Origin: an uncultured Chloroflexia bacterium
GTDB taxonomy: Bacteria; Chloroflexota; Limnocylindria; Limnocylindrales; CSP1-4
NCBI GenBank assembly: GCA_963707395.1
Contig: CAVPPQ010000002.1
Location: 195,474-259,473, forward strand
Direction: 5' to 3'
Length of the DNA: 64,000 nt
This document shows, piece after piece, positions 48,175 to 63,754 of this stretch. The stretch's first letter is position 1, and each line of letters opens with the position of its first letter. Below the pieces are notes generated by a model. The model was not told where the DNA came from. It saw only the letters and a list, made by a program, of their open reading frames with translations, and did not search any database. The translations under genes were made by a program, and so were the position numbers.

Positions 48175-49358
48175 GCACTCGCCTCCATCGTGGTCGGAAG
48201 GTTCAGGGGGAAGGTGAAGACGCCATCGGCGGCCTCGGGCGCCGGCAGCTCGCCATCGCCGCAGGCGGGGCAATGCGGGTCGCGCCGCAGCTGCAGCTCG
48301 CTGAAGGAGCCGTCCAGGGCGTCGTAGATGAGCAGGCGCCCGGCCAGCGAGTCGCCGATGGCGAGGAGGACCTTGATGCCTTCCGTGGCCTGCAGGAGGC
48401 CCATGACGCCGGGCACGACACCCAGGACGCCGGCCACCGAACAGCCCGGCGCCAGCTCGGGGGGCGGCGGGGTCGGGTAGAGGCAGCGATAGCAGGGCCC
48501 CTCGTGAGGCGTGAAGACGGTCAGCTGGCCCTCGAAGCGGAAGACGGAGGCGTGCACGACAGGGATGCCGGCGCGCACGGCAGCATCGTTGAGCGTGTAG
48601 CGCGTCTCGAAGGTATCGGTGCCATCGAAGATGAGGTCGTACCCGGCGATGAGACGCTCCACGTTGTCCGGTCCGAGCATCTCCTCGAAGGTCTCGACGC
48701 GAACGTCCGGGTTGAGCTCCCGGATGGTCTGCGCGGCCGACTCCGTCTTCTTCATGCCCACCCGGTCGGCGCGGTGGACGACCTGGCGCTGCAGGTTGGA
48801 GACGTCCACGACGTCGAAGTCGACGATACCGATGGTGCCCACGCCGGCTGCGGCCAGGTAGAGCATGGCCGGAGAGCCCAGGCCGCCGGCGCCGATGAAG
48901 AGCACCCGTGAGCCGAGGAGCTTGGCCTGGCCGGCCGCGCCGACCTCCGGGATGAGCAGGTGGCGCGAGTAGCGCTGCTTCTGCTCGCTGGTCAGCAGCA
49001 CGGGTTGCGTGAAGGGGCGACCCTCCGACTTCCAGGCCTGGAAGCCGCCGCTCATGGAGGCCACATCGGTGTAGCCCATGGCCTGCAGCGTCTGGGCCGC
49101 GAAGAGCGAGCGGATGCCGCCCGCGCAGTAGAGGATGACCGGCACCTCGCGGTCCGGGGCGAGGCCCTCGATCTCCTGTTCGATGAACGATTTCGAGACG
49201 TGATGGGCGCCGCCGATGTGCCCTTGCTCCCACTCGCTGACCTCGCGGACGTCGACCAGGACGGCGCCTTCCCGCGTGGCGCGCTCCGTCTGTGCCGTGG
49301 TCACCTCGCGAACGGCGGCGCGGGCATCGCGCAGCAGGTCGCGGTACGACTTGCTCAT
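48171..49358 (-). CDS. moeZ: MoeZ/MoeB-like E1 sulfurtransferase with inverted domain order (N-terminal rhodanese, C-terminal ThiF/E1 domain with CxxC…CxxC)
   Basis: Residues about 1-125 are a rhodanese domain (active-site CAGGIRS). E1 Rossmann motif LFIGAGGLGS follows. Zinc cysteines CYRC…CPAC. Start set at MSKSYRDLL. Confidence 0.8.
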   Translation of the reverse strand: MSKSYRDLLRDARAAVREVTTAQTERATREGAVLVDVREVSEWEQGHIGGAHHVSKSFIEQEIEGLAPDREVPVILYCAGGIRSLFAAQTLQAMGYTDVASMSGGFQAWKSEGRPFTQPVLLTSEQKQRYSRHLLIPEVGAAGQAKLLGSRVLFIGAGGLGSPAMLYLAAAGVGTIGIVDFDVVDVSNLQRQVVHRADRVGMKKTESAAQTIRELNPDVRVETFEEMLGPDNVERLIAGYDLIFDGTDTFETRYTLNDAAVRAGIPVVHASVFRFEGQLTVFTPHEGPCYRCLYPTPPPPELAPGCSVAGVLGVVPGVMGLLQATEGIKVLLAIGDSLAGRLLIYDALDGSFSELQLRRDPHCPACGDGELPAPEAADGVFTFPLNLPTTMEASA

Positions 49359-49801
49359 GTCGGTGCGACCGCGTCGGTCGCGGAACCCCCGTGGGTCGTG
49401 CCTGCGCCACCCGCCGCGGAGGCCGGGGCGTCCGGGCGGCCGTGGAGGGCGTGGTGCAGCGTGTTCAGGGAGAGGAGCGCGCACTTCAGCCGCGCCGGGC
49501 TGATCTCGATGCCCAGCAGGTCCAGGACGTCCTGATCGGTCAGGGCCTCGACGTCGGCCAACGGGCGGCCCTTGACCTCGTCGGTGAGCAGCGAGGCGGA
49601 GGCCTGGCTGATGGCGCAGCCGCGGCCGCTGAAGGCCACGTCGCGGACGGTGCCGTCCGCGCCGAGCGCCAGCATCATCGTGATGCGGTCGCCACAGAGC
49701 GGGTTGTTGCCCTCGTAGACGGCATCAGGCGCGTCCAGCGTGCCGAAGTTGTGGGGCTGTCGATAGTGCTCGAGGATCTCGTCGCGGTAGAGGTCGTCCA
49801 T
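49355..49801 (-). CDS. sufU: SufU/IscU-like Fe-S scaffold / sulfur acceptor
   Basis: Conserved cysteines LCGD…GRGCAISQASAS…LKC. ATGA overlap with moeZ. Confidence 0.8.
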   Translation of the reverse strand: MDDLYRDEILEHYRQPHNFGTLDAPDAVYEGNNPLCGDRITMMLALGADGTVRDVAFSGRGCAISQASASLLTDEVKGRPLADVEALTDQDVLDLLGIEISPARLKCALLSLNTLHHALHGRPDAPASAAGGAGTTHGGSATDAVAPT

Positions 49802-49839
49802 GGGAGTGTGCAGGGTACCCGATGCGGTGGGGTGGATGG

Positions 49840-51144
49840 CTAGGAGATGCTGCCGCCGCTGAGCGGGATGGCCGGCACAGGAGACACGGGCGGGCGGCCA
49901 AAGATGGCCTGCACCTTGCGCAGGCCAGCGGCCAGGCGATCGACGTCGTCACGGCCGCTGTACACGCTGAACGAGGCACGGTTGGTGGCTGGCAGCCCCA
50001 GGCGCTCGTGGAGCGGCTGCGTGCAGTGGTGCCCGGCACGGATGGCCACCGCCTCGCGGTCGAGCAGCGTGGCGACATCGTGGGGATGCGCCTCCGGCAG
50101 GGTGAAGGTGACGATGCCGGCCCGCTCGGCTGCCGTGCGCGGCCCGTGGATGCGGATGCCCGGCACCTCGCGCGGCAGCATCTCCAGCGCGTACGCGGTG
50201 AGGGCCTCCTCGTGCACGGCGACCCGCTCCATGCCGATGGCGGAGAGGTAGTCGACGGCCGCCCCCAGGCCGATGGCGGCCCCGATGTCGGGCGTGCCGG
50301 CCTCGAACTTGTGGGGGATCTCGTTGAACGTGGTGTGCCGCAGGTGCACAGAGCTGATCATCTCGCCGCCGCTCATGAAGGGCGGCATGGCCTCCAGGAT
50401 CTCGGCTCGCGCCCACAGGGCACCCGAGCCGGGGGGGCCCAGGACCTTGTGGCCGGAGAAGACGTAGAAGTCGGCGCCCAGGTCCGCCACGTCCACCGGC
50501 AGGTGCGGCACGGCCTGGGCGCCGTCCACCAGCACCAGTGCGCCGGCGTCGTGCGCCTGGCGAACCATCTCGCGGACGGGCAGCAGCGTGCCCAAGCCAT
50601 TGGACTTGTGGGTGAAGGCCACCAGCCGCGGACGCGTGCGCAGCAGGACCTCCCAGGCGTCCATGTTGAGGTGTCCCTCGGCGTCGAAGGGCACGAACTC
50701 CAGGTCGGCGTCCTTCTCCTGGGCCAGCAGCTGCCAGGGCACCAGGTTGGCGTGGTGCTCCAGCTCCGTCAGGACGATGGTGTCCGCCCGGCCGATGTTG
50801 CCCCGCCCCCAGGCGTAGGCCACCAGGTTGATGGCCTCCGTGGCGTTGCGCACGAAGACGATCTCGCGAGCATCGGGTGCGCCCAGGAAGCGGGCCACCT
50901 TCTGGCGGGCCCCCTCGTAGGCCGCCGTCGCCTCCTCGCCGATGGTGTAGATGCCGCGGTGCACGTTGGCGCTGTAGCGGCTGTGGTAAGCGTCCACCGC
51001 CTCGATGACCGAGCGCGGCTTGAGGGCCGTGGCAGCGCTGTCCAGGTAGGCCAGTCGCCGCCCACCGAAGTCGCGCTCGAAGATCGGAAAGTCGCGGCGG
51101 ACGACGTCCGGGTCGAGCGGGGGTTGGTCGTGCACGGGTGCCAT
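49840..51144 (-). CDS. sufS: cysteine desulfurase, SufS (class II)
   Basis: PLP lysine FSGHKVLGP, active-site Cys region RAGHHCTQPL. 434 aa. Confidence 0.9.
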   Translation of the reverse strand: MAPVHDQPPLDPDVVRRDFPIFERDFGGRRLAYLDSAATALKPRSVIEAVDAYHSRYSANVHRGIYTIGEEATAAYEGARQKVARFLGAPDAREIVFVRNATEAINLVAYAWGRGNIGRADTIVLTELEHHANLVPWQLLAQEKDADLEFVPFDAEGHLNMDAWEVLLRTRPRLVAFTHKSNGLGTLLPVREMVRQAHDAGALVLVDGAQAVPHLPVDVADLGADFYVFSGHKVLGPPGSGALWARAEILEAMPPFMSGGEMISSVHLRHTTFNEIPHKFEAGTPDIGAAIGLGAAVDYLSAIGMERVAVHEEALTAYALEMLPREVPGIRIHGPRTAAERAGIVTFTLPEAHPHDVATLLDREAVAIRAGHHCTQPLHERLGLPATNRASFSVYSGRDDVDRLAAGLRKVQAIFGRPPVSPVPAIPLSGGSIS

Positions 51145-51173
51145 GTCGGGTTCGGGTCGAGTGCCCGGCGCCG

Positions 51174-52142
51174 TCAGCCCGCCTGGACCTCGAGGTGCTC
51201 CACCTCGGGGTCCTCGTCGAGTGCGTCGATGTCGAAGCCGGCCTCGCGCAGGATGGGCGCGTAACCCTCGTCCTCCAGCCGCAGGGCCAGGTCCTTGCCG
51301 CCCGAGGCGATGATGCGGCCGTGCGCCAGGACGTGGACGAGGTCAGGCTGGATGTAGTTGAGCAGGCGCTGGTAGTGGGTGATGAGGAGCACGCCCAGGT
51401 CCGGGCTGAGCTGGGCGTTGACGCCCTCGGCCACGATGCGCAGCGCATCGATGTCGAGACCCGAATCGGTCTCGTCGAGGATCGCGAACTCCGGCTCCAG
51501 GATGGCCATCTGGAGCATCTCCAGGCGCTTCTTCTCGCCGCCGGAGAAGCCCTCGTTGACGTACCGACCAGCGAACGAGTCGTCCAGCTTGAGTAGCGCC
51601 ATCTTGTCGCGCAGGAGTCGGCGGAAGTCGGCCATCTTGATGCCGCCCCGGGTCGGGTCGGACGGATCGATCTCGCCGTCGCCGCCCTCCAGCCCCCGTC
51701 GGCGCGCATTGAGCGCGGTGCGCAGGAAGGAGGCCACGGAGAGCCCGGGCACGGCCGTGGGGTACTGGAAGGCCAGGAAGAGGCCCAGGCGGGCGCGCTT
51801 GTCCGGGCTGAGCTGGAGGATGTCGTGGCCCTTCCAGATGACCTCGCCCTGCGTCACCTGGTAGGCGGGGTGGCCCATGAGGGCGTAGGCGAGGGTCGTC
51901 TTGCCCGAGCCGTTGCGGCCCATGATGGCGTGGACCTCGCCCTTGCGGACCTCCAGGTCGATGCCGCGCAGGATCTCGCGCGTGGGGTCAGCCGAGGGGA
52001 CGACGTGCAGATCCCGGATGAGGAGGACGCGGTCGGCATCGGTGGCCGAAGCGCGCTCGGCAGCTGAGGCGCTCTCGGCGGCAGTGGCGGGGCTGGTGCT
52101 GGCCTGGGGATCTCCGGGCAGCGTGGCAGTGTCGCGGTTCAT
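51174..52142 (-). CDS. sufC: Fe-S cluster assembly ATPase SufC (with ~50-aa N-terminal extension)
   Basis: Walker A GRNGSGKTT, signature FSGGEKKR, Walker B ILDETDSGLD, H-loop ITHYQR; close to canonical SufC. Confidence 0.85.
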   Translation of the reverse strand: MNRDTATLPGDPQASTSPATAAESASAAERASATDADRVLLIRDLHVVPSADPTREILRGIDLEVRKGEVHAIMGRNGSGKTTLAYALMGHPAYQVTQGEVIWKGHDILQLSPDKRARLGLFLAFQYPTAVPGLSVASFLRTALNARRRGLEGGDGEIDPSDPTRGGIKMADFRRLLRDKMALLKLDDSFAGRYVNEGFSGGEKKRLEMLQMAILEPEFAILDETDSGLDIDALRIVAEGVNAQLSPDLGVLLITHYQRLLNYIQPDLVHVLAHGRIIASGGKDLALRLEDEGYAPILREAGFDIDALDEDPEVEHLEVQAG

Positions 52143-52708
52143 GGCTGGACGATGGGCTCCTTGGCGGGACGGTCGGGGAGTGGTCGGACGGTCACGAGGA
52201 CCGCGTCATCTTGACCCGGCCGAGTGTCGCGGCCGGACGTCGGCGGGTGCGAGGGGTGCCCAGCTCCGGGCAGGGTGAGCTCTGCCAGGGAGGTGGACTC
52301 CAGCGCCTGCACGACGGCGTCGCGGACGCGACGCCAGAGCAGATCGACCGTGCAGAACCCGCCCCGGGAGCAGAGTTCGCCGGGGTGCGCGTCCCCGCTG
52401 GCACAGATCATCGGCGCGATGGGACCCTCGAGCGCGGTCACGACCTCCGCCATGTGGATGCGCGAGGGGTGCCGCGCGAGCTCGTAGCCGCCGTGCGCGC
52501 CGCGGGTGCTGGTGACCAAGCCGGCCTCGCGCAGGCTGACCACCAGCTGCTCCAGGTAGGGGCGCGGCAAGTCCTCGTGCTCAGCCATCTCCGAAAGGCT
52601 GACGGGGCCGCTGCCGTGGTGGCGCGCCAGCTCCACCATGAGGCGCACGCCGTACTCCCCACGCGTGGAGAAGTGGAGGGCTCCCGATGGCGGGGCGGTG
52701 GTGCGCAC
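52139..52708 (-). CDS. Rrf2 family transcriptional regulator (IscR/SufR-like) with C-terminal extension
   Basis: HTH STRGEYGVRLMVELARHH…VSLSEMAEHEDLPRPYLEQL. GTG start. ATGA overlap with sufC. Confidence 0.8.
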   Translation of the reverse strand: MRTTAPPSGALHFSTRGEYGVRLMVELARHHGSGPVSLSEMAEHEDLPRPYLEQLVVSLREAGLVTSTRGAHGGYELARHPSRIHMAEVVTALEGPIAPMICASGDAHPGELCSRGGFCTVDLLWRRVRDAVVQALESTSLAELTLPGAGHPSHPPTSGRDTRPGQDDAVLVTVRPLPDRPAKEPIVQP

Positions 52709-52867: not shown

Positions 52868-53398
52868 TCAGCTGGGGCGTTGTGCCCGTTGCGCGACCCT
52901 GATCTCGTGACGACGCGGGGTGCGCCCATCCACGGACGCGCGCAGCACCACCTGCCCCTCCGCGGGGATGGCCACCGGGATGTTGAAGGCCATCGGCACC
53001 AGCATGTCCATGCCGGCCATGCCGGGCGGGCGGCCCGTCGTCAACTTCGCCTCGAAGCCGACCAGGCGCTGCTCGTCCTGCTGCATCTCGACCGCCACCG
53101 TGTGCTCGTCGTCGGTGTGGGCGAACGGGATGCGCACGCCAAGGGCGATGCCCACGATCATGCGGTGCGGGAAGGCGGACGGCTGGATGCGGTCCCAGGC
53201 GGCACCCATGAGGTAGAGCTTGCCGTTGACGACCTCGGCCCGGTCAGCCACCAGGAGATAGTCGATCTCCGGCTTGCGAGCGAAGGTCGCCTCGGCCGCT
53301 TCCAGGGCGCCCTCCAGCCCATCGGCCGCCTGCGGCTCTCCTGGCGCGTCGGGATCGGGTGTCTGCGCGGGGTCGGGTGTCTGCGCGGGATCGGTCAC
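52868..53398 (-). CDS. hypothetical protein (176 aa, acidic Pro/Ala-rich N-terminus)
   Basis: Overlaps upstream DUF4389 gene by 4 nt. No motif recognised. Confidence 0.45.
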   Translation of the reverse strand: MTDPAQTPDPAQTPDPDAPGEPQAADGLEGALEAAEATFARKPEIDYLLVADRAEVVNGKLYLMGAAWDRIQPSAFPHRMIVGIALGVRIPFAHTDDEHTVAVEMQQDEQRLVGFEAKLTTGRPPGMAGMDMLVPMAFNIPVAIPAEGQVVLRASVDGRTPRRHEIRVAQRAQRPS

Positions 53399-54318
53399 AG
53401 TCGCGGGTCGTCCTCTCCGAGCGAGAAGGGCGGGTAGCGGTCGACCATCAGGAGCTGATAGGCGAGGACCCGGAAATACCAGCGGTTGTAGCCGCCGACG
53501 ATGGTGTAGATGACATCCGCCTGGTGGCCCGTGAAGAGGACCGGCACCCAGGTGAACCAGATGAGGAACATGGCCAGGATGTTCAGGAACGAGAGCACGA
53601 TGTAGTGCGGGATGAGGATGATGAAGCGCACCCAGATGCCGATGAGCGGGATGCCCCAGAGGCGGTTGATGCGCACGCCCTCGTCGAAGCGCACCGTGAC
53701 TGGGTGCTCCTCGCCGGAGAGGGAGAAGGGCGGATAGGTCGGTGTCAGCAGCTCAAGGTAGGCCTGCACGCGGACCAACCAGCCCATCAGGCCACCGATC
53801 CAGCGGTAGCCCCAGCCCGGGAAGCGGCCCAGGATGAGCACGGGGATCCAGGTCACGAGGCTGAGCAGAGCGGCCACGATGGCGATGAGCGCCAACAGGA
53901 TGAAGTGCGGGATGAGCAGGATGGTGCGGACGAGGATGCCGACGATCGGGATCCCCCAGAGCCGGTTGATCCGAGCGAGGCGGTCGTACGAGATGTTGAC
54001 CGGGTAGGCGTCAGGGGCAAGGGGGTAGGCCGGGGGCGGCTGCCAGACCGGCTCAGGCGGGAGATAGCCTGGGGGCTGGTAGCCGGGCGGAGGCAGCGGG
54101 TAACCGGGCGGAGGCGGCGGGTAGCCGCCGGCGGGCGGGTAGCCGGGCGGAGGCGGCGGGGCGTAGCCGCCAGGGGGCGGCGGGTAGCCACCAGGGGGCG
54201 GCGGGTAGCCACCAGGCTGGGAGTAGCCCGGGGGCGGCGCCTGCCACGGCGATGGCTGCTGGCCTTCACTCCATCGCGGATCCTGCGGAGTCGCGGGGCC
54301 CTGGGATTCCCACGTCAT
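53395..54318 (-). CDS. DUF4389 domain membrane protein (two tandem DUF4389 repeats) with Pro/Gly/Tyr-rich N-terminal repeat region
   Basis: Two copies of R(I/L)NRLWGIP…IPH(F/Y)I(L/V)L…YPPFSL. N-terminus has (GGYPPPP)n. Confidence 0.7.
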   Translation of the reverse strand: MTWESQGPATPQDPRWSEGQQPSPWQAPPPGYSQPGGYPPPPGGYPPPPGGYAPPPPPGYPPAGGYPPPPPGYPLPPPGYQPPGYLPPEPVWQPPPAYPLAPDAYPVNISYDRLARINRLWGIPIVGILVRTILLIPHFILLALIAIVAALLSLVTWIPVLILGRFPGWGYRWIGGLMGWLVRVQAYLELLTPTYPPFSLSGEEHPVTVRFDEGVRINRLWGIPLIGIWVRFIILIPHYIVLSFLNILAMFLIWFTWVPVLFTGHQADVIYTIVGGYNRWYFRVLAYQLLMVDRYPPFSLGEDDPRL

Positions 54319-55309: not shown

Positions 55310-55954
55310 TCAGGCGGACGTGGACCCGCGCGACGACTCGGCGGCAGCGCCCTCGGCCTGCTCGGCGAGGCGCGCGAGCACCCACAGCAGGTCGGCCAGG
55401 CGGTTGAGGTAGGGCATCAGCCAGGCGCCCGGTACGAGGCGGTCGTGGTCGAGCGCGATGACGCGTCGCTCGGCACGCCGCACCACGGTGCGGCTCACCT
55501 CGAGCGCGGCGGAGAGACGGCTGGCGCCCGGCACGATGAACTCGCGGGGCATCTCCACCGCCTCCTCGGCGGCGCGAAGCCGGTCCTCGAGGGCGATCAG
55601 CATGGCCTCGTCGACGCGGGTCTCGCCATCACGCAGGCGATCCCAGGCATCGGGATTGGTGGCCAGCTCCGCACCGGCCACGAAGAGGTCGCGCTGCAGC
55701 GAGAGGATCGTGTGACCAAGGTCCTCGAGGGCGGACGGCTGCCGGCCTGCGGCACGCATGACGTCCAGCTCAGCCCGGGCCAGGCCAAGGCAGGCCACGG
55801 CTTCGTCGATGGTCCCGTAGGCCTCCGCGCGGGCGTCGTCCTTGGCGATGCGGCCGCCATAGAGCAGGCCCGTCGTGCCATCGTCACCCTTACCCGTGGC
55901 GACGGCGCTGCCCGCGATGCGGACGCGGGACGGTCGCGGGTCGGTGCCGCTCAC
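55310..55954 (-). CDS. ATP:cob(I)alamin adenosyltransferase, PduO-type
   Basis: TGKGDDGTT P-loop-like motif diagnostic of PduO/MMAB. Confidence 0.8.
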   Translation of the reverse strand: MSGTDPRPSRVRIAGSAVATGKGDDGTTGLLYGGRIAKDDARAEAYGTIDEAVACLGLARAELDVMRAAGRQPSALEDLGHTILSLQRDLFVAGAELATNPDAWDRLRDGETRVDEAMLIALEDRLRAAEEAVEMPREFIVPGASRLSAALEVSRTVVRRAERRVIALDHDRLVPGAWLMPYLNRLADLLWVLARLAEQAEGAAAESSRGSTSA

Positions 55955-56304
55955 CAGGTCAGGCCGGCGTCCCGCGGGTCCCAGCGCTCAGCGAGCAGGG
56001 TGACCTTGACGTCGTGGCCCTCGGCCTCCTCGGCTGCCTCCTTGACCTGCTGGATCATGGAACCAGCGTAGGGGCAGAAAGGCGTCGTGAGGATCATCTT
56101 GATCTCGGTCAGCTCGTCGCCAAGGATGACCTGCCTGATGAGCGCCAGCTCCACCACGTTCATGCCGATCTCTGGATCGACCACGGCCCGCAGAGCGTCC
56201 AGGACGGCCAGCTCGCGGGAGCGTGCCACGGGGTCGAAGGCCGGCGCGGCGGAGGGGGCGATGGTCGGGCCGAGGGCGTCCTCGGAAAGCGTCTGGTCGG
56301 ACAT
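55951..56304 (-). CDS. DUF59/MIP18-family Fe-S assembly protein (SufT-like)
   Basis: VVDPEIGMNVVELALI and conserved Cys in TTPFCPY. Confidence 0.7.
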   Translation of the reverse strand: MSDQTLSEDALGPTIAPSAAPAFDPVARSRELAVLDALRAVVDPEIGMNVVELALIRQVILGDELTEIKMILTTPFCPYAGSMIQQVKEAAEEAEGHDVKVTLLAERWDPRDAGLTW

Positions 56305-57844: not shown

Positions 57845-58204
57845 TCAGCCGTCGCCGACCGTGTCCTGCCCGACGAAGGGCATGCCATCCTCCTCGACGG
57901 CCCTGAGGCTCATGCGCAGGGCCGCCGACTTGGCGGCGGCGACCTGTCGGACGTAGGCTGCCTCTTCTTCGGCCGTCATGGCCCGTCCGCGGACGGCATC
58001 GGCCGGGCGGCCCACCATGAGCCACGCGAGGTGGTAGCGGTCCATCGACCCCCAGGCCTGCCGAAGCAGATCGTCGGAGACGGCGATCCAGGTGCGCAGG
58101 GCACCCAGCGACGGGCGGGCCTCCAGCCGCTCACCCTCGGTCAGCAGCCGGCGGACCTGGCGCACGTACTCATCGCGGGTCACGTCCCTATCATCGGCTG
58201 ACAT
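57845..58204 (-). CDS. hypothetical protein (119 aa)
   Basis: Start MSADDRD. The longer 196-aa version of the ORF would overlap the beta-lactamase-like gene. Confidence 0.4.
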   Translation of the reverse strand: MSADDRDVTRDEYVRQVRRLLTEGERLEARPSLGALRTWIAVSDDLLRQAWGSMDRYHLAWLMVGRPADAVRGRAMTAEEEAAYVRQVAAAKSAALRMSLRAVEEDGMPFVGQDTVGDG

Positions 58205-59270
58205 GACCATCCCCGCAGCGTCCCTGGATGTGACCGCCCTCGACCTGGGGGAGGCACGTTCCATCACCGCCCGGTACGTGCAGGCTGGCACGCTGCCATG
58301 CGCGAGCTTCGGGCTGGTCGATGCGGCCGGGCGCACCGCGACGCAGATCGTGGCCGCACCGGGCCTGCGCGTCGCCGAGGACTCGGTGTTCTTCCTGGCA
58401 TCCATCAGCAAGGCCATCGTGGCCACGGCGGTCATGCAGTACGTGGACGAGGGGCGCCTCGATGTGCACGCGCCGCTGGTCCGCTACCTGCCCGAGCTCC
58501 GGGGCGGCGTCGACGGCGTCAGCGCCTGGCACGTGCTGACGCACACCTCCGGCCTGCCGGACATCCCCGTGGAGACGCTGCGGCGCGAGCGACCGGCCTA
58601 TCGCAGCACCGTCGCGTTCGTGGCCGCCAGCCGGCCCGCCTGGCCGCCCGGCAGCCGCTACGAGTACAACTCGGCCGCCTGGGTGCTGCTCTCCGAGGTG
58701 ATGGCGCGTCTCAGCGGGATGCCCTTCGCCGAGGCGCTCGCGCTGCGCCTGACGCGGCCGCTGGGCATGGTCGACACGAGCTTCGATGGGCGCCCGAGGC
58801 GCTCGCGCATCGTGCGGGTGCGGGGCTCGCGGATGGACAACCGACTGGTGCAGGAGCTGCTGCTGCGCTTCCTGGCCCGGGCCCAGCTGCCGGGCGGGGG
58901 CCTCTTCGGCAGCCTCCCGGACCTCCTGCGCCTGGGAGGCGCACTGCTACCGCCCATCGACGCCTCGAGCGGCCCCCGCGTCCTGAGCCAGGCGGCCATC
59001 GACGAGATGGCGCGCAGCCAGGCGGAGGGCCTCACGCACGAGGGCCAGGACGGGCGCGTCCACGAGATCCGGCAGGGCCTGGGTTGGCGGAAGCCACAGC
59101 CCGAGTGGCCCGGGTCGGAGCGGGCATTCACGCACGGGGGCATCTCTGGCGGTCGGCTCTGGGTCGACCCGGAGGCCGGCTTCGCCTTCGCCTTTCTCAC
59201 CAACCTCTGGCAGGCGCCGCTGACGCCGGCGATCGAGACCCTCGAGGCCGTCTACCGGGCCCGCGGCTGA
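58203..59270 (+). CDS. serine hydrolase, beta-lactamase/esterase (class C-like) family
   Basis: SxxK motif ASISK, then YxN/HTSG regions. Start at the internal ATG (MTIPAAS). Confidence 0.75.
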   Translation: MTIPAASLDVTALDLGEARSITARYVQAGTLPCASFGLVDAAGRTATQIVAAPGLRVAEDSVFFLASISKAIVATAVMQYVDEGRLDVHAPLVRYLPELRGGVDGVSAWHVLTHTSGLPDIPVETLRRERPAYRSTVAFVAASRPAWPPGSRYEYNSAAWVLLSEVMARLSGMPFAEALALRLTRPLGMVDTSFDGRPRRSRIVRVRGSRMDNRLVQELLLRFLARAQLPGGGLFGSLPDLLRLGGALLPPIDASSGPRVLSQAAIDEMARSQAEGLTHEGQDGRVHEIRQGLGWRKPQPEWPGSERAFTHGGISGGRLWVDPEAGFAFAFLTNLWQAPLTPAIETLEAVYRARG

Positions 59271-59272
59271 GC

Positions 59273-59686
59273 TCAGGGAGCGGCGCCCTCGTCGGTCGCG
59301 AAGGCGCGCAGCTGGTCCACGCAGACGGCCCGGCGGCGCTCCACCTGGCGAACGATCCAGGGATCCACGCGGGCGCTGTCCTCGATGCGCAGCTCCGGAC
59401 CGGTGGGACCGTCCTGCAGCAGGATCCCATCACTCGTGCGGTAGTCGGACCGCCAGTCGGCCTGCAGTTGCACGGCGGAGGCGACGACCACCGCCCGCGA
59501 GAAGGACCAGTCGAGATGCTCGGCGTTGAGACGGTCGACGATGTCACGGACGCGGATCAGCTCGGCGCGGGGGAGGCGCGCCAGCAGGTGGACGACGCGA
59601 AGGTCGGCGAAGGGGTCACCGGGGGCCGCCACGACGGGTGGCTGGAGGCTGGCGTCGGGCAGGCCGGGAGGCTCCCTGAGCCGCAT
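59273..59686 (-). CDS. hypothetical protein (137 aa)
   Basis: ATGA overlap with the upstream gene. No motif recognised. Confidence 0.4.
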   Translation of the reverse strand: MRLREPPGLPDASLQPPVVAAPGDPFADLRVVHLLARLPRAELIRVRDIVDRLNAEHLDWSFSRAVVVASAVQLQADWRSDYRTSDGILLQDGPTGPELRIEDSARVDPWIVRQVERRRAVCVDQLRAFATDEGAAP

Positions 59687-60111
59687 CAGACCTCCTCGCG
59701 ATCCTCGCCGCTGCCGGCCGGTCCGCGCCGCACCGCCAGGTAGCTGCCCGGCGGGACGTCGGCCAGGAGCGGCCGCACGACGTCCAGGACGCCGTCGGCG
59801 TCCGTGCCCACGAGTCGGATGGCCAGGTAGCCCGCCTCGAGCGAGTTGGAGTCGTGCTCGCCCACGCCAGACGCGTCGAGCGCGCGCATGAGACCGTTCT
59901 CCAGCGCGAAGAGCCGCTGCTGCTCACGAACGGACTCGAAGGCCGGGTCCGCGAGGCGCAGCCAGACGGTCACCCGATGCTTGTCGGCGTTGGCGTCGAA
60001 CGTGGCCTCGTGGGCGGTACGCCACTCCGCCTCATCGTCCCCGATCGCCGACGACGACGCGCGCGCCTCGCCGTCCCCGGACCCGCCGAAGAGCCGCCGC
60101 AGGAAGCCCAC
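59686..60111 (-). CDS. hypothetical protein (141 aa)
   Basis: GTG start 5 nt downstream of the KamA stop. No motif recognised. Confidence 0.4.
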   Translation of the reverse strand: MGFLRRLFGGSGDGEARASSSAIGDDEAEWRTAHEATFDANADKHRVTVWLRLADPAFESVREQQRLFALENGLMRALDASGVGEHDSNSLEAGYLAIRLVGTDADGVLDVVRPLLADVPPGSYLAVRRGPAGSGEDREEV

Positions 60112-60116
60112 CGTGG

Positions 60117-61682
60117 CTAGAGGAGCTCTCCGTGCGCGGAGGCCGTGGGCTCGCCCTCGCGGGGCCGCGGCTCCTCACCCGGACCGAAGGCGGCGGCGCC
60201 ATCCCTGCCGTCGCCCTGGGACCCGGCACCGGTGCCGAGCTCGGGCAGTGGCCGGCCGGCCTGACCCTCGATGGCACCCACACCGTAGGGCACCCACTTC
60301 TCCGGCGACTGCAGGCGGTGCTGCTCCTCGTTGCCGCGGGCGTGAAGCTGGGCAAAGCCTGATGGCTCGATCCACATGGCATCACCCTGGAGGAGGGCGT
60401 GGACGCCGCCCTGTCCCGGCTCGGAGCGCTCGGAGCGGCACCAGGCGCAGCTGGCGCGCTGGTGGGCCTGGTAGTCCGTGGGCTCCTCGTAGGTCGTGAT
60501 GTAGCCCTCGTAGTTGCGCAGGATGACCTTGTGATCCGAGTAGCTGATGAGGTAGTTGGGCATGACCGGGATCTTGCCGCCGCCGCCGGGCGCGTCGATG
60601 ACGTAGGTCGGCACCGCATAGCCGCTGGTGTGCCCGCGCAGGCCCTCGATGATCTCGAGACCCTTGCCCACCGGCGTGCGGAAGTGCCCGGAGCCCTCCA
60701 CGAGATCGCACTGGTAGAGGTAGTAGGGGCGGATGCGGTTCTCGACCAGCTTGTGGACCAGCGAGCGCTGGATGTGCACGCAGTCGTTGACGCCGGCCAG
60801 CAGCACCGACTGGTTGCCGATGGGGATGCCGGCGCGTGCCAGCATGTCCACCGCGCGGGAGACCTCCGGGGTGATCTCGTTGGGGTGGTTGAAGTGGAGG
60901 TTCATCCAGAGCGGGTGGTAGCGGGCGAGCATCTCGCAGAGCTCGTCATCCACGCGCTGCGGCAGGAACACCGGGACGCGGGTGCCGATGCGCACGATCT
61001 CGATGTGGGGGATCTCGCGCAGGCCGCGCAGCACGCGCTCCAGCAGCTTGGGGGCCATCGTCAGCGGATCCCCGCCAGAGAGGAGCACGTCACGCACCTG
61101 GGGCGTGCGGCGCAGGTAGTCGAGCTGCGCCTCGAAGTCGCGCGTGTTGAAGTTCTGGGCCGCGTCGCCCACGATGCGTGAGCGGGTGCAGTAGCGGCAG
61201 TAGGAGGCGCACTGCGTGGTCACCAGCATCAGCACGCGGTCCGGGTAGCGGTGCACGAGGCCAGGCACGGGCGAATGGCGGTCTTCGGCCAGCGAGTCCT
61301 CCATCATGGCCGTGAAGGCCTCCTGCTCGCGCCCGAGAGGCATGACCTGGCGGCGGATGGGGTCGTCCGGGTCAGCCGGGTCCACGAGGCTGATGAAGTA
61401 GGGCGTGATGTCCACCCGGAACTTGTCCGGTGCACCGAGGCCCTCGCGCTCCTCGTTGGTCAGCTCCAGGATCTGGGCGAACGTCTCCAGGTCGTTGACG
61501 CGGTTGGAGAGCTGCCAGCGCCAGTCGTGCCACTGCTCGTCTGGCACGTCAGCGTAGAAGGGAGCGCGGCGGCTGCGGGCAGGTCGGCCATCGGCGCCCA
61601 AGGCGCGCGCGGGGTCTCGCGGGTTGACCCAGTCGTCCTGTCCGGGTGCTCGCTCCACGGTGGCGTCGGTCGCGTCCTGCAT
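60117..61682 (-). CDS. kamA: lysine 2,3-aminomutase family radical-SAM protein (KamA-like) with ~100-aa C-terminal extension
   Basis: CASYCRYCTRS (CxxxCxxC) radical-SAM motif, and KamA blocks VLLSGGDPL, PYYLYQCD, GYAVPTYVID. Start set at MQDATD. Confidence 0.8.
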   Translation of the reverse strand: MQDATDATVERAPGQDDWVNPRDPARALGADGRPARSRRAPFYADVPDEQWHDWRWQLSNRVNDLETFAQILELTNEEREGLGAPDKFRVDITPYFISLVDPADPDDPIRRQVMPLGREQEAFTAMMEDSLAEDRHSPVPGLVHRYPDRVLMLVTTQCASYCRYCTRSRIVGDAAQNFNTRDFEAQLDYLRRTPQVRDVLLSGGDPLTMAPKLLERVLRGLREIPHIEIVRIGTRVPVFLPQRVDDELCEMLARYHPLWMNLHFNHPNEITPEVSRAVDMLARAGIPIGNQSVLLAGVNDCVHIQRSLVHKLVENRIRPYYLYQCDLVEGSGHFRTPVGKGLEIIEGLRGHTSGYAVPTYVIDAPGGGGKIPVMPNYLISYSDHKVILRNYEGYITTYEEPTDYQAHQRASCAWCRSERSEPGQGGVHALLQGDAMWIEPSGFAQLHARGNEEQHRLQSPEKWVPYGVGAIEGQAGRPLPELGTGAGSQGDGRDGAAAFGPGEEPRPREGEPTASAHGELL

Positions 61683-61775
61683 GGGCCGCGATGATACCCC
61701 CGACACGACGTTTCCCCGGGGGGCGCGGTGGCCTGCCGCACCACGCCAGTGCCTGGAGCCTGGGTCCGGTGTCTT

Positions 61776-61806
61776 GACACACCGACCCCAGTGGCTCATA
61801 AGTGCC
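61776..61806 (+). promoter_or_regulatory. possible promoter (TTGACA-17/18 nt-CATAAG/TAAGTG) upstream of the first Flp pilin gene
   Basis: Good -35 hexamer, weak -10. About 300-nt leader to the 62103 start. Confidence 0.2.
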
Positions 61807-62102
61807 ATACCGTCAGCGGACCCGGAGCGGTACGTTGTCGTTGCCTGGACCCGCGTGGCCGTGAAGGCCCCGGTCGCGAGCCGGCGCATTCATCCATCCT
61901 CGGACAGCCGAATACGAAGGACGGGCACCGACCGAGCGGCGCCCGGGCCCTGTCCCCCGGCATCGCATCCTGAGCAGGCACGCGCTTCATCATCATCCTC
62001 GCGGTGGCTGCAGGGAACGGTCGCTCGGTCCGCATCGGATCGAGGGCAGCGGGCCGGCGGCCAGGTTCGTGAGCGAACTGTCCACCATCGGAGACACAGA
62101 CG

Positions 62103-62561
62103 ATGGAAACGCTTCGGAGCACGCTTGGCGCATTGGCCGACTGGGCCGCTCGCCGCGTCGTGTGGTTCAGATCCACGCTCGATGCCGCGCTGGCGGGCCG
62201 TCCCGACTCCGAGCGCGGACAGGGCCTGGCCGAGTACGCGCTCATCCTGTCACTCATCGCCGTCGCCGTCATCGGCGCGCTGACGTTCTTCGGACAGCAA
62301 CTCGATGGGCGTCTTCCTGGACCCGATCAACGCGGAGACATCAAGGTCTTCGACGGGATGCCTCGCGCCTCGGGTCGAGCCCTCACAAGGCGCTCGATCG
62401 GTGCCAACGAGCGGCCGGAGTTCGGTCACTGCGGGAGCGCGGCGGTTGATAGCTCCGGCGCCACGGCCTGGGACGACTGCGAACCCTGGGCTACGTCCTC
62501 GCCCTGCTCCTGCTGGGGTCGTCACGGCGCATCGAGCGCTAGGCGTCACCGCGGGGGCTAG
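62103..62561 (+). CDS. Flp/Fap pilin-like protein (Flp motif encoded at ~62217-62304); C-terminal part of ORF doubtful
   Basis: ERG/QGLAEYALILSLIAVAVIGALTFFG matches the G/XXXXEY Flp prepilin motif plus hydrophobic core. The ORF then runs another ~85 aa through a duplicated fragment, which is atypical. Confidence 0.5.
   Translation: METLRSTLGALADWAARRVVWFRSTLDAALAGRPDSERGQGLAEYALILSLIAVAVIGALTFFGQQLDGRLPGPDQRGDIKVFDGMPRASGRALTRRSIGANERPEFGHCGSAAVDSSGATAWDDCEPWATSSPCSCWGRHGASSARRHRGG
62469..62518. repeat. 50-bp direct repeat copy 1 (matches 62788-62837 with 2 differences)
   Basis: tgggacgactgcgaaccctgggctacgtcctcgccctgctcctgctggg versus copy 2 tgggaccgactgcgcaccctgggctacgtcctcgccctgctcctgctggg. 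Confidence 0.8.
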
Positions 62562-62781
62562 CTTCCGGCCCGTGCTTGAGGAGAGGCGATTGCGACACCC
62601 CGCCTTGGTGAGTGCCTCGACCGATCGGACGCCGCTCATCGAGCGTGGCGTCACGCGGCGGACCGCTGCTCGCGCCGTACGGACACGTGCGATGCGACGC
62701 CCTTCCCACAAGAGACGCTACGCCTCTGCCACGACAGCTGGCCTTCCCGGCGACTCGGCCGTTTGCTAGACTCCGGACGCC

Positions 62782-63177
62782 ATGACTTGGGACCGACTGC
62801 GCACCCTGGGCTACGTCCTCGCCCTGCTCCTGCTGGGCGTGGTCGTCTTCTCGCTGTACGGCGCCTTCCGCACGGAGCTCGAGAAGAGCCACTTCATCGG
62901 CTTCCTCGGTGGGGTCGTGCTGGGCACGATCATGGTGAGCCTCATCGTGATCATCCTCATCGTCCCGGAGCGGCGACGGACCGCCTGGGTCCAGGCCATC
63001 ACGACCGTCAACGCCAAGTACCTGTTCCTGGCGCTGATCATCGGCTGGGCGCTCGCCATGGGCCTGCTGGCCAGCCTGCAACTCGAGGTCAACACGGTCG
63101 GGGTCCCGGCGCTCATCGGCCTCTTCGCCGGCATCTTCATCTTCATGGGCTTCATCTGGTCCGTCATCGGCGAGTAG
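62782..63177 (+). CDS. small polytopic membrane protein (131 aa) within Flp pilin gene cluster
   Basis: 4 TM segments. Its 5' end is the second copy of the 50-bp repeat. Confidence 0.5.
   Translation: MTWDRLRTLGYVLALLLLGVVVFSLYGAFRTELEKSHFIGFLGGVVLGTIMVSLIVIILIVPERRRTAWVQAITTVNAKYLFLALIIGWALAMGLLASLQLEVNTVGVPALIGLFAGIFIFMGFIWSVIGE
62788..62837. repeat. 50-bp direct repeat copy 2
   Basis: See copy 1. Confidence 0.8.
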
Positions 63178-63281
63178 GGATGGACCGGCCGACGGGGTCG
63201 GGTCCATGACAGGACCGTCGGGTCGTGCAGGGTGGGACACGGTGACACCGCCGACGTCGCGGCGACTGGGGCAGCTCAGAG

Positions 63282-63476
63282 ATGAGGCCAGCCAGGCACT
63301 ACCTCGACCGACTCCTGGGGCATGGCGAGGACGGCGACCATCTGCTCGAGTACGCGTTCATCGCTCTCCTCATCATCGTCGTCGCCGTGCTCGCCCTCGT
63401 CTTCCTCGGTGACGCCGTCGCGGAGTTGATCTCGCTCATCGGTGGCCGAGTCGACGAGGTGACCGTCACCAAGTAG
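63282..63476 (+). CDS. Flp/Fap pilin component (64 aa)
   Basis: GDHLLEYAFIALLIIVVAVLALVFLG Flp motif; typical size. Confidence 0.75.
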   Translation: MRPARHYLDRLLGHGEDGDHLLEYAFIALLIIVVAVLALVFLGDAVAELISLIGGRVDEVTVTK

Positions 63477-63754
63477 GACCCACCGTCCCGCTCCCCGCCG
63501 GATCCGCACCGGGGCGCAGGGGCCGAAGGTCACGGGCGGGGACCCCCCAGAGGTGCCATCGACGGGCGCGCACACCCAGGACCATCATCCCGCCACTGAG
63601 GACGTGCGGCCATCATGCTGGTCGTCCCAGTGGACAGCTTGCGGCGGGGCTGTACCATCCGCCGTGCACGGGTGCTTCATGGCCCCGAGCGCATTCATCC
63701 ATCTCGGCGCCCGGCACCGCCGGATCGCCACCAGGAATAGGGAGGACCATCCGA

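What the first reader, a model, noticed from the sequence alone, without database searches (positions are those of the whole stretch)
59273..61682. Extended KamA-type radical-SAM aminomutase cotranscribed with two unknown proteins
The KamA homologue (CASYCRYCTRS) carries about 100 extra C-terminal residues. Two tightly coupled downstream ORFs follow (141 aa and 137 aa, ATGA overlap), with no recognisable domains. KamA paralogues are usually paired with a GNAT acetyltransferase (ablB) or with EF-P lysylation (epmA); these partners are neither. A new beta-amino-acid-utilising function is possible.
Basis: partly seen in the sequence, partly recalled or inferred. Interest (0 to 1): 0.5.

Follow-up and report, generated by a model that had tools for sequence, protein, structure and literature searches.

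The report
Lysine aminomutase with lineage-specific small neighbours
This is an ordinary lysine 2,3-aminomutase gene (it makes beta-lysine) from an uncultured soil Chloroflexota lineage; the two small genes behind it are non-enzymatic, lineage-specific proteins, not a new beta-amino-acid pathway, and the one unusual feature is a strongly conserved peptide on a flexible tail at the end of the enzyme.

Summary
All three ORFs are real genes (GC3 0.88-0.92). They are packed tightly on the minus strand: a 5-nt gap, then a 1-nt TGATG overlap (not ATGA).

**KamA.** It passes the NCBIfam equivalog cutoff for lysine 2,3-aminomutase. It matches the Clostridium enzyme 2A5H at E=7e-160 and keeps the cluster, PLP and lysine-specifying residues. 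About 35 extra residues are N-terminal and about 70 C-terminal, not 100 C-terminal.

**C-terminal tail.** It consists of a conserved segment, a variable linker and a near-invariant tip, PGEEPRPREGEPTxSAHGELL. The tip is under protein-level selection.

**ORF2.** It has an N-terminus almost identical to the E. coli MinD membrane-targeting peptide. An acidic linker follows, then a ferredoxin-like domain remotely related to DUF695.

**ORF3.** It is an acidic winged-helix protein found across class Limnocylindria.

**Conservation.** The compact trio occurs in only 16 of 53 ORF3-centred loci. ORF2 follows kamA in 6 of 60 kamA-centred loci. Elsewhere ORF3 follows kamA directly, lies 1-4 kb away behind unrelated genes, or sits without kamA.

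**Verdict.** A known enzyme with a lineage-specific tail. A new beta-lysine-using function is not supported. Interest is low to moderate.

The parts
60117..61682 (-). kamA: lysine 2,3-aminomutase, 521 aa
   Evidence: NCBIfam TIGR03820 lys_2_3_AblA scores 553.9 bits against a cutoff of 525.4. Pfam finds Radical_SAM and LAM_C. PDB 2A5H matches at E=7.4e-160. GC3 is 0.92. The exact protein is on record, and cluster members are named lysine 2,3-aminomutase.
61188..61211 (-). CxxxCxxC radical-SAM cluster motif (CASYCRYC, residues 158-165; equivalent to C125/C129/C132 of 2A5H)
   Evidence: Alignment to 2A5H; coordinates.
60573..60596 (-). DAPGGGGK: equivalents of Asp330 (binds the lysine epsilon-amino group) and Lys337 (PLP lysine). 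The Asp293 equivalent lies in YQCD at 60705..60716.
   Evidence: Alignment to 2A5H and coordinates. The residue roles come from the published 2A5H structure, recalled from my own knowledge.
61560..61631 (-). Lineage-conserved N-terminal extension (WVNPRDPARALGADGRPARSRRAP, residues 18-41); the part before residue 37 lies upstream of the first residue aligned to 2A5H
   Evidence: The same segment appears in KamA of distant Limnocylindria loci (L043, L044, L056 and others).
60264..60344 (-). Conserved post-core segment of the C-terminal extension (HARGNEEQHRLQSPEKWVPYGVGAIEG, residues 447-473)
   Evidence: Conserved in about 60 loci. Invariant columns R, G, N, H, R, L, Q, W, P, G, V, G, A in the tail alignment.
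60189..60263 (-). Variable low-complexity linker of the KamA tail (residues 474-498)
   Evidence: Its length differs several-fold between the tails listed, and its sequence is not conserved.
60120..60188 (-). Near-invariant C-terminal tip FGPGEEPRPREGEPTASAHGELL (residues 499-521)
   Evidence: There are 54 distinct nucleotide versions. Residues G, E, E, P, R, P, G, P, A, E and L are invariant while their third codon positions vary freely. In about 1 Mb of related sequence the motif occurs only at the KamA C-terminus.
61691..61696 (-). TATCAT, a -10-like box 8 nt upstream of the kamA ATG; this suggests a leaderless or near-leaderless transcript
   Evidence: Sequence. G.TAT.AT is conserved at 80% or more in a 49-sequence alignment of upstream regions. 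The exact box-8 nt-ATG arrangement was recovered only in the window, L006 and L007. The consensus promoter scan found nothing, so this is an inference.
59686..60111 (-). ORF2: 141-aa acidic protein (pI 4.7) made of an N-terminal amphipathic peptide, a disordered linker and a DUF695-like alpha/beta domain
   Evidence: GC3 is 0.92. It has 155 close homologues, all annotated hypothetical. The N-terminus M/V-G-F-L-R/K-R-L is conserved, which validates the GTG start.
60082..60111 (-). ORF2 residues 1-10, MGFLRRLFGG: resembles the MinD membrane-targeting peptide
   Evidence: The E. coli MinD membrane-targeting sequence is KGFLKRLFGG (PMC5471200). F3, L4, R6, L7 and G9 are conserved in 90% or more of 60 homologues. 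The hydrophobic moment is 0.55, against 0.48 for the MinD peptide. pLDDT here is low, as expected for a peptide that folds on a membrane.
59689..59979 (-). ORF2 residues 45-141: ferredoxin-like beta-alpha-beta-beta-alpha-beta-beta domain with a conserved GEHD(S/T)N motif
59273..59686 (-). ORF3: 137-aa acidic winged-helix protein with a long C-terminal helix; a widespread gene of class Limnocylindria

Best explanation
**The enzyme.** kamA encodes a genuine lysine 2,3-aminomutase. It uses a [4Fe-4S] cluster, S-adenosylmethionine and pyridoxal phosphate to convert L-lysine to beta-lysine. The family assignment and active-site residues are shown here. The chemistry is inferred from the family.

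**Lineage-specific additions.** The enzyme carries a short N-terminal extension and a C-terminal tail. The tail has a conserved segment, a variable flexible linker and a near-invariant 20-residue tip. The tip most likely acts as a tethered docking peptide for a partner not yet identified (inferred).

**The two downstream genes.** In this genome they are probably co-transcribed and translationally coupled with kamA. They are not enzymes that use beta-lysine.
- ORF2 is a small acidic protein. Its first ten residues mimic the MinD membrane-targeting amphipathic helix. Its folded part is a DUF695-like ferredoxin-fold domain of a kind that is often membrane-anchored or fused to immunity-type domains.
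- ORF3 is an acidic winged-helix protein conserved throughout class Limnocylindria.

**How the arrangement arose.** kamA followed by ORF3 is a recurrent, possibly ancestral, co-directional pair in this class. ORF2 is one of several alternative insertions between them. The trio is therefore a sub-lineage arrangement inside a generally syntenic chromosome region, not a conserved three-gene pathway.
For: **KamA identity**
- TIGR03820 scores 553.9 bits, above its cutoff of 525.4. The models for glutamate 2,3-aminomutase (431 vs 650), arginine 2,3-aminomutase (388 vs 600) and EpmB (262 vs 369) all fall below their cutoffs.
- 2A5H matches at E=7.4e-160. C125/C129/C132, R134, C268, D293, D330, K337, C377 and C380 are conserved.

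**Tail**
- The three-part architecture is seen in about 60 loci.
- Tip residues are invariant despite free synonymous variation in 54 distinct sequences.
- The tip was found on no other protein in about 1 Mb of related DNA, nor in the protein database search.

**Partners are non-enzymatic**
- The models are confident: pLDDT 94-98 over the ORF2 domain and 92.2 for ORF3.
- The folds are generic ferredoxin-like and winged-helix.
- ORF2 links remotely to DUF695, and some remote homologues are fused to Imm26.
- The ORF2 N-terminus resembles the MinD membrane-targeting sequence.
- Many remote homologues have transmembrane, lipoprotein or amphipathic N-termini.

**Conservation**
- Of 53 ORF3-centred genome loci, 16 have the compact trio and 9 have kamA plus ORF2 with ORF3 0.7-5.7 kb downstream of the kamA stop. 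In 21 kamA is upstream without ORF2, and 7 have no kamA within the upstream flank.
- Of 60 kamA-centred metagenome loci, only 6 have ORF2 after kamA. Eleven have ORF3 directly after kamA, with a gap of 7-100 nt.
- The intervening genes are unrelated: nitroreductase-like, S41 peptidase, EamA-type transporter, metalloprotease and others.
- Flanking genes of mixed function (beta-lactamase family, DUF433, FeS_assembly_P, Cob_adeno_trans) are just as syntenic.
Against: - The coupling in this genome is very tight (5-nt gap, 1-nt overlap). The co-directional kamA-ORF3 neighbourhood persists in 46 of 53 and 31 of 45 scored loci. A real functional link of ORF3, ORF2 or both with KamA cannot be excluded.
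- ORF2 itself does not hit DUF695; only its remote homologues do, and mostly below the Pfam cutoff.
- No consumer of beta-lysine (AblB, EpmA, KamDE) was found in the window. The physiological role of the product therefore remains open.
- The docking role of the tip is inferred from its architecture only.
Confidence: 0.6

Rival explanations
1. One reading: ORF2 and ORF3 are novel enzymes or carriers that consume beta-lysine, so the trio is a new beta-amino-acid-utilising pathway.
For: - The three genes are tightly coupled.
- Neither partner is a GNAT or EpmA, and neither matches a known family directly.
- KamA paralogues are usually paired with a consumer of their product (general knowledge).
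Against: - ORF2 folds as about 100 residues of generic ferredoxin-like domain. ORF3 is a winged helix. Neither has a cofactor or nucleotide-binding motif or a match to any enzyme family.
- ORF2 follows kamA in only 6 of 60 kamA-centred loci.
- ORF3 is often separated from kamA by unrelated genes, or occurs without kamA.
Confidence: 0.05
2. A regulatory or scaffolding module. ORF3 is a local regulator of kamA, binding DNA or protein. ORF2 is a membrane-tethered adaptor. One of them binds the conserved C-terminal tip of KamA and so controls where or when beta-lysine is made.
For: - kamA followed by ORF3 is a recurrent co-directional pair, directly adjacent in at least 11 kamA-centred loci.
- When ORF2 is present it usually starts 1-13 nt after the kamA stop.
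- The tip is under strong protein-level selection.
- The ORF2 N-terminus matches the MinD membrane-targeting peptide.
- ORF3 has a PadR-like architecture of winged helix plus C-terminal helix.
Against: - The tip is present in many loci where no ORF2 is nearby.
- ORF3 occurs without kamA in 7 of 53 loci.
- The ORF3 family is acidic (median pI 5.0) and its putative recognition helix has no net positive charge.
- The tip, ORF2 and ORF3 are all acidic, which gives no obvious electrostatic complementarity.
- No conserved palindrome was seen upstream of kamA.
- The whole region is syntenic regardless of function.
Confidence: 0.25
3. Physiological role as in the AblA/AblB system: the beta-lysine is acetylated by an AblB-type GNAT encoded elsewhere in the genome to give the osmolyte N-epsilon-acetyl-beta-lysine. 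ORF2 and ORF3 are unrelated neighbours.
For: - KamA passes the AblA equivalog cutoff.
- The lineage lives in soils and sediments, where osmotic stress is common. The loci come from soil and sediment metagenomes.
Against: - I recognised no GNAT among the coding ORFs of the window by eye from their first 70 residues; these were not profile-scanned.
- None was seen either among the ORFs inspected between kamA and ORF3, or around ORF3, in related loci.
- Gene adjacency is part of what defines ablAB, and it is absent here.
- The rest of the genome could not be searched.
Confidence: 0.25
4. KamA acts as an EpmB-type enzyme and supplies beta-lysine for EF-P modification. This modification is reported for some Chloroflexota.
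For: A review states that EF-P beta-lysylation occurs in diverse phyla including Chloroflexota (PMC12856214).
Against: - The EpmB model scores 261.7 bits against a cutoff of 369.3, while the AblA/LAM model scores 553.9.
- The protein keeps the long LAM_C domain typical of clostridial-type enzymes.
- No EpmA-like gene lies nearby.
Confidence: 0.03

Closest known systems
Clostridium subterminale lysine 2,3-aminomutase (PDB 2A5H)
   Same: The alignment is collinear over 406 residues at E=7.4e-160. The CxxxCxxC cluster, the PLP lysine, Arg134, both lysine-specifying aspartates and three of the four zinc cysteines are conserved.
   Different: This protein has about 34 extra N-terminal and about 69 extra C-terminal residues. 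The C-terminal part is a conserved segment, a variable linker and an invariant tip. The Cys375 equivalent is Ala.
AblA/AblB (methanogen and bacterial N-epsilon-acetyl-beta-lysine synthesis)
   Same: KamA scores above the AblA equivalog cutoff.
   Different: No AblB-type GNAT was recognised next to kamA, among the window's coding ORFs (read by eye), or in the related-locus ORFs that were inspected.
EpmB/EpmA (EF-P beta-lysylation)
   Same: Same KamA superfamily.
   Different: The score is below the EpmB cutoff (261.7 vs 369.3). The protein is about 180 residues longer than the 321-position EpmB model and has a full LAM_C domain. There is no EpmA neighbour.
Pfam DUF695 and Imm26-DUF695-like fusions
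   Same: The ORF2 domain reaches 393 remote homologues. Of 122 scanned, 27 hit DUF695 over the same region and 7 carry an N-terminal Imm26 domain.
   Different: ORF2 itself has no Pfam hit at E<=1. Most DUF695 hits among the relatives are below the gathering score. DUF695 has no known function, and no paper in the held library mentions it.
E. coli MinD membrane-targeting sequence (KGFLKRLFGG)
   Same: ORF2 residues 2-10, GFLRRLFGG, differ from GFLKRLFGG only by K to R. They have a similar hydrophobic moment and are conserved across ORF2 homologues.
   Different: The peptide is N-terminal here and C-terminal in MinD. ORF2 has no ATPase domain. Membrane binding was not tested.
Small winged-helix proteins with a C-terminal helix (PadR-like regulators, ScpB, Cdt1 C-terminal domain)
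   Different: There is no sequence-level match to PadR, MarR or any HTH family. The protein is acidic and its putative recognition helix is uncharged. A conserved proline-rich N-terminal segment is specific to this family.
Proteins built as folded core, disordered linker and conserved terminal tip (for example the bacterial SSB C-terminal tip, or encapsulin cargo-loading peptides)
   Same: The KamA tail has the same three-part logic: a variable linker and an invariant terminal peptide under purifying selection.
   Different: There is no sequence resemblance to those tips (comparison from my own knowledge, not tested). No partner, encapsulin or shell gene was seen nearby.

Membership tests
Lysine 2,3-aminomutase (LAM/AblA, TIGR03820) | Score above the curated equivalog cutoff | tested here: met
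   553.9 bits against a cutoff of 525.4.
Lysine 2,3-aminomutase (LAM/AblA, TIGR03820) | Radical-SAM CxxxCxxC motif that binds the [4Fe-4S] cluster | tested here: met
   CASYCRYC at residues 158-165 aligns with C125/C129/C132 of 2A5H.
Lysine 2,3-aminomutase (LAM/AblA, TIGR03820) | PLP-binding lysine (Lys337 of 2A5H) | tested here: met
   DAPGGGGK is conserved at residues 363-370.
Lysine 2,3-aminomutase (LAM/AblA, TIGR03820) | Lysine-specifying Asp293 and Asp330, and carboxylate-binding Arg134 | tested here: met
   All three are conserved in the alignment. The residue roles are recalled from the published structure.
Lysine 2,3-aminomutase (LAM/AblA, TIGR03820) | Structural zinc site (Cys268, Cys375, Cys377, Cys380) | tested here: inconclusive
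   C268, C377 and C380 are conserved. The C375 equivalent is Ala, and a conserved His/Asp just upstream might substitute.
Lysine 2,3-aminomutase (LAM/AblA, TIGR03820) | Catalytic conversion of L-lysine to beta-lysine | not testable with these tools
   Needs an enzyme assay.
AblA-AblB osmolyte gene pair | Adjacent AblB-type GNAT acetyltransferase | tested here: not met
   No GNAT is called next to kamA in relatives whose genes carry Pfam labels. None was recognised by eye among the window's coding ORFs or the related-locus ORFs inspected. The rest of the genome was not searched.
EpmB (EF-P beta-lysylation) | Score above the TIGR03821 cutoff and an epmA/efp neighbourhood | tested here: not met
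   261.7 bits against a cutoff of 369.3. No EpmA-like neighbour.
Glutamate or arginine 2,3-aminomutase | Score above the equivalog cutoff; replacement of the lysine-specifying aspartates | tested here: not met
   431.2 bits against 650, and 387.6 against 600. Both aspartates are retained.
Pfam DUF695 (for ORF2) | Score above the Pfam gathering threshold (23.1 bits) | tested here: not met
   ORF2 has no hit at E<=1.
Pfam DUF695 (for ORF2) | Transitive homology through intermediate sequences | tested here: inconclusive
   27 of 122 remote homologues of the ORF2 profile hit DUF695 (best E=3.9e-6). In the hits inspected individually the match falls on roughly the same part of the model. No profile-profile test against the Pfam model was possible.
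Membrane-targeting amphipathic helix (MinD type, for the ORF2 N-terminus) | Sequence and amphipathicity like a proven membrane-targeting peptide | tested here: met
   GFLRRLFGG against GFLKRLFGG (PMC5471200). Hydrophobic moment 0.55 against 0.48.
Membrane-targeting amphipathic helix (MinD type, for the ORF2 N-terminus) | Actual membrane binding | not testable with these tools
   Needs localisation or liposome assays.
Winged-helix transcription regulators (PadR/MarR-like, for ORF3) | Winged-helix fold | tested here: met
Winged-helix transcription regulators (PadR/MarR-like, for ORF3) | Sequence membership in a known HTH family | tested here: not met
   No Pfam or NCBIfam hit. The profile search against PDB sequences gave nothing better than E=0.46.
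Winged-helix transcription regulators (PadR/MarR-like, for ORF3) | Basic DNA-contacting surface and a cognate operator | tested here: inconclusive
   The family median pI is 5.0. The putative recognition helix has net charge 0 and the wing -1. No conserved palindrome was found upstream of kamA. DNA binding itself cannot be tested here.

The most novel reading that the evidence does not exclude
The invariant C-terminal tip of KamA (PGEEPRPREGEPTxSAHGELL, on a flexible linker) is a tethered docking peptide. It recruits the aminomutase to a lineage-specific partner: ORF3, or the ORF2 domain that is anchored to the membrane by a MinD-like amphipathic helix. Beta-lysine synthesis in Limnocylindria would then be spatially or allosterically controlled, a mode of regulation not described for any lysine 2,3-aminomutase.
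Probability: 0.15. Interest if true: 0.55.

Novelty: new variant of a known kind. Interest (0 to 1): 0.3.

Why it matters
The main value is negative. A tightly coupled trio that looked like a new beta-amino-acid pathway is a standard lysine 2,3-aminomutase followed by lineage-specific, non-catalytic neighbours. It should not be annotated as a new pathway.

Three smaller positive points remain:
- Lysine 2,3-aminomutase appears widespread in the abundant but uncultured soil and freshwater class Limnocylindria. No adjacent consumer of beta-lysine was found, so the role of beta-lysine there is open.
- The enzyme carries a conserved terminal peptide on a disordered tether. This is a clean, testable handle for finding an interaction partner.
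- ORF3 (in 498 species genomes) and the ORF2 family are two unannotated protein families that now have fold assignments.

Tried and rejected
- **Riboswitch or leader RNA upstream of kamA.** The Rfam E-value scan of 58500-64000 gave only a sub-threshold Guanidine-II hit (20.4 bits against 32, E=0.75) on the far side of the intergenic region. I treat it as chance.
- **Promoter and terminator scans.** The consensus scans found nothing.
- **Defence or phage origin of ORF2 and ORF3.** There were no PADLOC hits, and only a PHROG hit at E=0.17.
- **Profile searches against PDB sequences.** Nothing better than E=0.46 for ORF3 or E=1.3 for the ORF2 family.
- **Foldseek of ORF2 against the PDB.** Nothing at E<=1e-3. 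The afdb50 library was unavailable.
- **The same tip on other proteins**, which would have suggested a shared sorting or cargo tag. It was found only on KamA, both in about 1 Mb of related DNA and in the protein database search. That search returned only short KamA fragments.
- **A conserved operator upstream of kamA.** The MAFFT alignment of 49 upstream regions shows only a -10-like G.TAT.AT box. An anchored ungapped analysis recovered just 3 sequences.
- **Read-through or frameshift fusion of KamA and ORF2.** Rejected, because the gap length varies (1-13 nt) with no constant frame.
- **Self-modification of the tail by KamA.** Rejected, because the tip contains no lysine.
- **Literature.** A recent Limnocylindria genomics paper mentions no aminomutase, lysine or osmolyte. 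No paper in the held library mentions DUF695.


Full report
**Observation.** The window has about 70% GC. At the stated coordinates three co-directional minus-strand ORFs exist: KamA 60117..61682 (521 aa), ORF2 59686..60111 (141 aa, GTG start) and ORF3 59273..59686 (137 aa). All three carry the codon-position signature of real genes in a high-GC genome. GC3 is 0.92, 0.92 and 0.88, with GC2 of 0.46-0.50. Overlapping alternative frames show the inverse pattern. The longest KamA ORF runs up to 61889, but that upstream part looks non-coding (GC3 0.77, GC2 0.71). The 521-aa protein that starts at 61682 is exactly the one on record in public collections. The motif CASYCRYCTRS is present.

Two details of the finding need correction. 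First, the ORF2/ORF3 junction reads GTC TGA TGC. The stop and start codons share one base (TGATG), so this is not an ATGA overlap. The KamA stop and the ORF2 GTG are 5 nt apart. Second, the extra length of KamA is split. The alignment to the 416-aa Clostridium enzyme covers query residues 37-444 against chain residues 3-408. That leaves about 34 extra residues at the N-terminus and about 69 at the C-terminus, not about 100 at the C-terminus. No terminator-like site lies within or after the cluster. Co-transcription is therefore likely but inferred.

**What KamA is.** NCBIfam places it in TIGR03820 (lysine 2,3-aminomutase, AblA equivalog) at 553.9 bits, above the curated cutoff of 525.4. The models for glutamate 2,3-aminomutase (431 vs 650), arginine 2,3-aminomutase (388 vs 600) and EpmB (262 vs 369) all fall below their cutoffs. 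Pfam finds Radical_SAM and LAM_C. Against solved structures the only hit is 2A5H, lysine 2,3-aminomutase, at E=7.4e-160. In that alignment the following are conserved:
- the three cluster cysteines (C125/C129/C132);
- Arg134;
- Asp293 and Asp330, which specify lysine;
- the PLP lysine 337;
- three of the four zinc cysteines (C375 is Ala).

Members of its 90% cluster are already named lysine 2,3-aminomutase by JGI and NCBI, from Candidatus Limnocylindrales. This part is ordinary.

**The C-terminal tail.** KamA tails from about 60 related loci share one architecture:
- a conserved segment, RGNxExHRLQxPxKWVPYGVGAIEG;
- a low-complexity linker of very variable length;
- a near-invariant extreme C-terminus, YGPGEEPRPREGEPT[AG]SAHGELL, followed by the stop codon.

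Among 54 distinct nucleotide versions of the last 23 codons, eleven residues are invariant. Their third codon positions use two to four different synonymous codons. The constraint therefore acts on the peptide, not on the RNA or on a ribosome-binding site for ORF2. The tip is also present where no ORF2 follows. The motif occurs nowhere else in about 1 Mb of related sequence. A database search with the tail returned only KamA fragments from the same lineage. A folded core, a disordered tether and an invariant tip form the usual layout of a docking peptide. That reading is an inference, and the partner is unknown.

An exhaustive profile search found 393 remote homologues of the domain. Of 122 of them, 27 hit Pfam DUF695 (best E=3.9e-6) and 7 carry an N-terminal Imm26 domain. 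ORF2 itself hits nothing. Many remote homologues have an N-terminal transmembrane or lipoprotein-like segment, or a short amphipathic N-terminus.

The first ten residues of ORF2, MGFLRRLFGG, are almost the E. coli MinD membrane-targeting sequence KGFLKRLFGG (PMC5471200). The hydrophobic moment is equal or higher. My best reading is a peripherally membrane-tethered, non-catalytic, probably protein-binding small domain. This is inferred, not shown.

**Is the trio a unit?** Close relatives keep kamA-ORF2-ORF3, but they also keep everything else around it. Flp pilin and a 131-aa membrane protein lie upstream. A convergent beta-lactamase-family gene, DUF433, FeS_assembly_P, Cob_adeno_trans and Bax1-I lie downstream. 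This is general synteny. Two wider samples give the following counts.

| Sample | Arrangement | Loci |
|---|---|---|
| ORF3-centred GTDB loci with at least 6 kb upstream (53 scored) | compact trio | 16 |
| | kamA and ORF2 present, ORF3 0.7-5.7 kb downstream of the kamA stop | 9 |
| | kamA upstream, no ORF2 | 21 |
| | no kamA within the upstream flank | 7 |
| kamA-tip-centred metagenome loci with at least 500 nt downstream (60 scored) | ORF2 directly after kamA | 6 |
| | no ORF2 in the downstream flank | 54 |
| kamA-tip-centred loci with at least 1.2 kb downstream (45 scored) | ORF3 downstream within the flank | 31 |

In the 7 ORF3-centred loci without kamA, ORF3 is often followed instead by a rhodanese-type gene. 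The genes lying between kamA and ORF3 differ between lineages. By inspection of their sequences they look like a nitroreductase, an S41 peptidase, an EamA-type transporter, a zinc metalloprotease and small unknowns. In the kamA-centred sample, eleven loci have ORF3 directly after kamA, at 7-100 nt and with no ORF2.

The simplest history is that kamA followed by ORF3 is an old co-directional pair in this class. The space between them has accepted different insertions, and ORF2 is the insertion in the lineage of this window. That leaves a functional link between KamA and ORF3, or ORF2, possible. I put it at roughly one in four. It removes the argument that the three genes form a conserved pathway.

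**Mechanism and comparison with what is known.** The family assignment and active-site residues show a radical-SAM, PLP-dependent lysine 2,3-aminomutase. It is closest to the clostridial and AblA type and is distinct from EpmB. Not shown is what happens to the beta-lysine. I recognised no AblB-type GNAT, EpmA or lysine-fermentation genes among the window's coding ORFs or in the inspected flanks. The rest of the genome could not be searched. A review reports EF-P beta-lysylation in some Chloroflexota (PMC12856214), but this protein fails the EpmB model. The partners work like a membrane-tethered adaptor (ORF2) and a winged-helix regulator or adaptor (ORF3). Membership in DUF695, or in any HTH family, is not established.

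**Novelty and verdict.** The enzyme is a known kind and is already annotated as such. What is new is the lineage-specific tail with its invariant tip, and fold assignments for two unannotated families. I rate it a new variant of a known kind, with interest 0.3. The most novel reading not excluded is that the tip docks KamA to ORF2 or ORF3 and so controls beta-lysine synthesis. I give that a probability of about 0.15.

Noticed in passing
window 60120..60188 (-), and the KamA C-termini in L001-L164: The last ~20 residues of KamA (PGEEPRPREGEPTxSAHGELL) are nearly invariant across roughly 60 loci, while the linker before them varies several-fold in length. Synonymous sites vary freely. No other protein in the fetched DNA carries the motif.
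   Followed up: yes
L022, L026, L028, L040, L053, L078 (KamA linker region): Some lineages carry a second conserved island inside the KamA linker, LPTERAA[ST]DTNAG[IVM]VDxExLxPEEQRD. It is absent from the window's protein.
   Followed up: no
window 60082..60111 (-): The ORF2 N-terminus MGFLRRLFGG is almost identical to the E. coli MinD membrane-targeting peptide KGFLKRLFGG. Similar short amphipathic N-termini, or transmembrane segments, occur in many remote homologues of the ORF2 domain.
   Followed up: partly
window 61691..61696 (-): A TATCAT box lies 8 nt upstream of the kamA ATG, and G.TAT.AT is conserved in an alignment of 49 upstream regions. This suggests a leaderless kamA mRNA. There is no obvious Shine-Dalgarno sequence at a normal distance before kamA or ORF2.
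   Followed up: partly
window 58092..59270 (+) and 59273..59686 (-): A beta-lactamase-family (serine hydrolase) gene converges on ORF3, with only 2 nt between the two stop codons. This convergent pair is kept in most related loci, more consistently than the compact trio.
   Followed up: partly
window 62103..63476 (+): Upstream of kamA and divergent from it lie small Flp/Fap-type pilin-like genes and a 131-aa membrane protein. Pfam labels them Flp_Fap (weak) in the syntenic loci L001-L003.
   Followed up: no
window 53395..54318 (-): A DUF4389-family protein has a long N-terminal PPGGY/PPPGY proline-glycine-tyrosine repeat region.
   Followed up: no
window 49355..52708 (-): An Fe-S cluster assembly neighbourhood: an Rrf2-type regulator, a SufC-like ATPase, a cysteine desulfurase-like protein and a NifU/SufU-like protein. 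FeS_assembly_P and Cob_adeno_trans genes lie further on, at 55310..56304. The first four were identified by eye from translations; the FeS_assembly_P, Cob_adeno_trans and Rrf2 labels come from syntenic loci.
   Followed up: no
L043, L054, L073, L075, L079, L081: An S41 C-terminal processing peptidase gene (with a PDZ domain and an N-terminal membrane anchor) recurs next to ORF3, or between kamA and ORF3, in distant Limnocylindria. It is probably extracytoplasmic, so it is unlikely to see the KamA tip.
   Followed up: no
L066, L073, L079, L081, L084: In the sub-lineage where ORF3 lacks kamA, ORF3 is 155-165 aa long, with an N-terminal extension and a different C-terminal end (FSRRDR...). It is followed by a co-directional rhodanese/thiosulfate sulfurtransferase-like gene.
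   Followed up: partly
L005, L010, L020, L048, L049, L074: kamA, and sometimes neighbouring genes, appears split into several frames in some metagenome-assembled genomes. These are probably assembly indel errors rather than pseudogenes. They may also explain the many 70-127 aa KamA tail 'proteins' in the protein database.
   Followed up: no
window 62194..62232 (-): A sub-threshold Rfam match to the Guanidine-II riboswitch (20.4 bits against a gathering score of 32, E=0.75). I treat it as chance.
   Followed up: no
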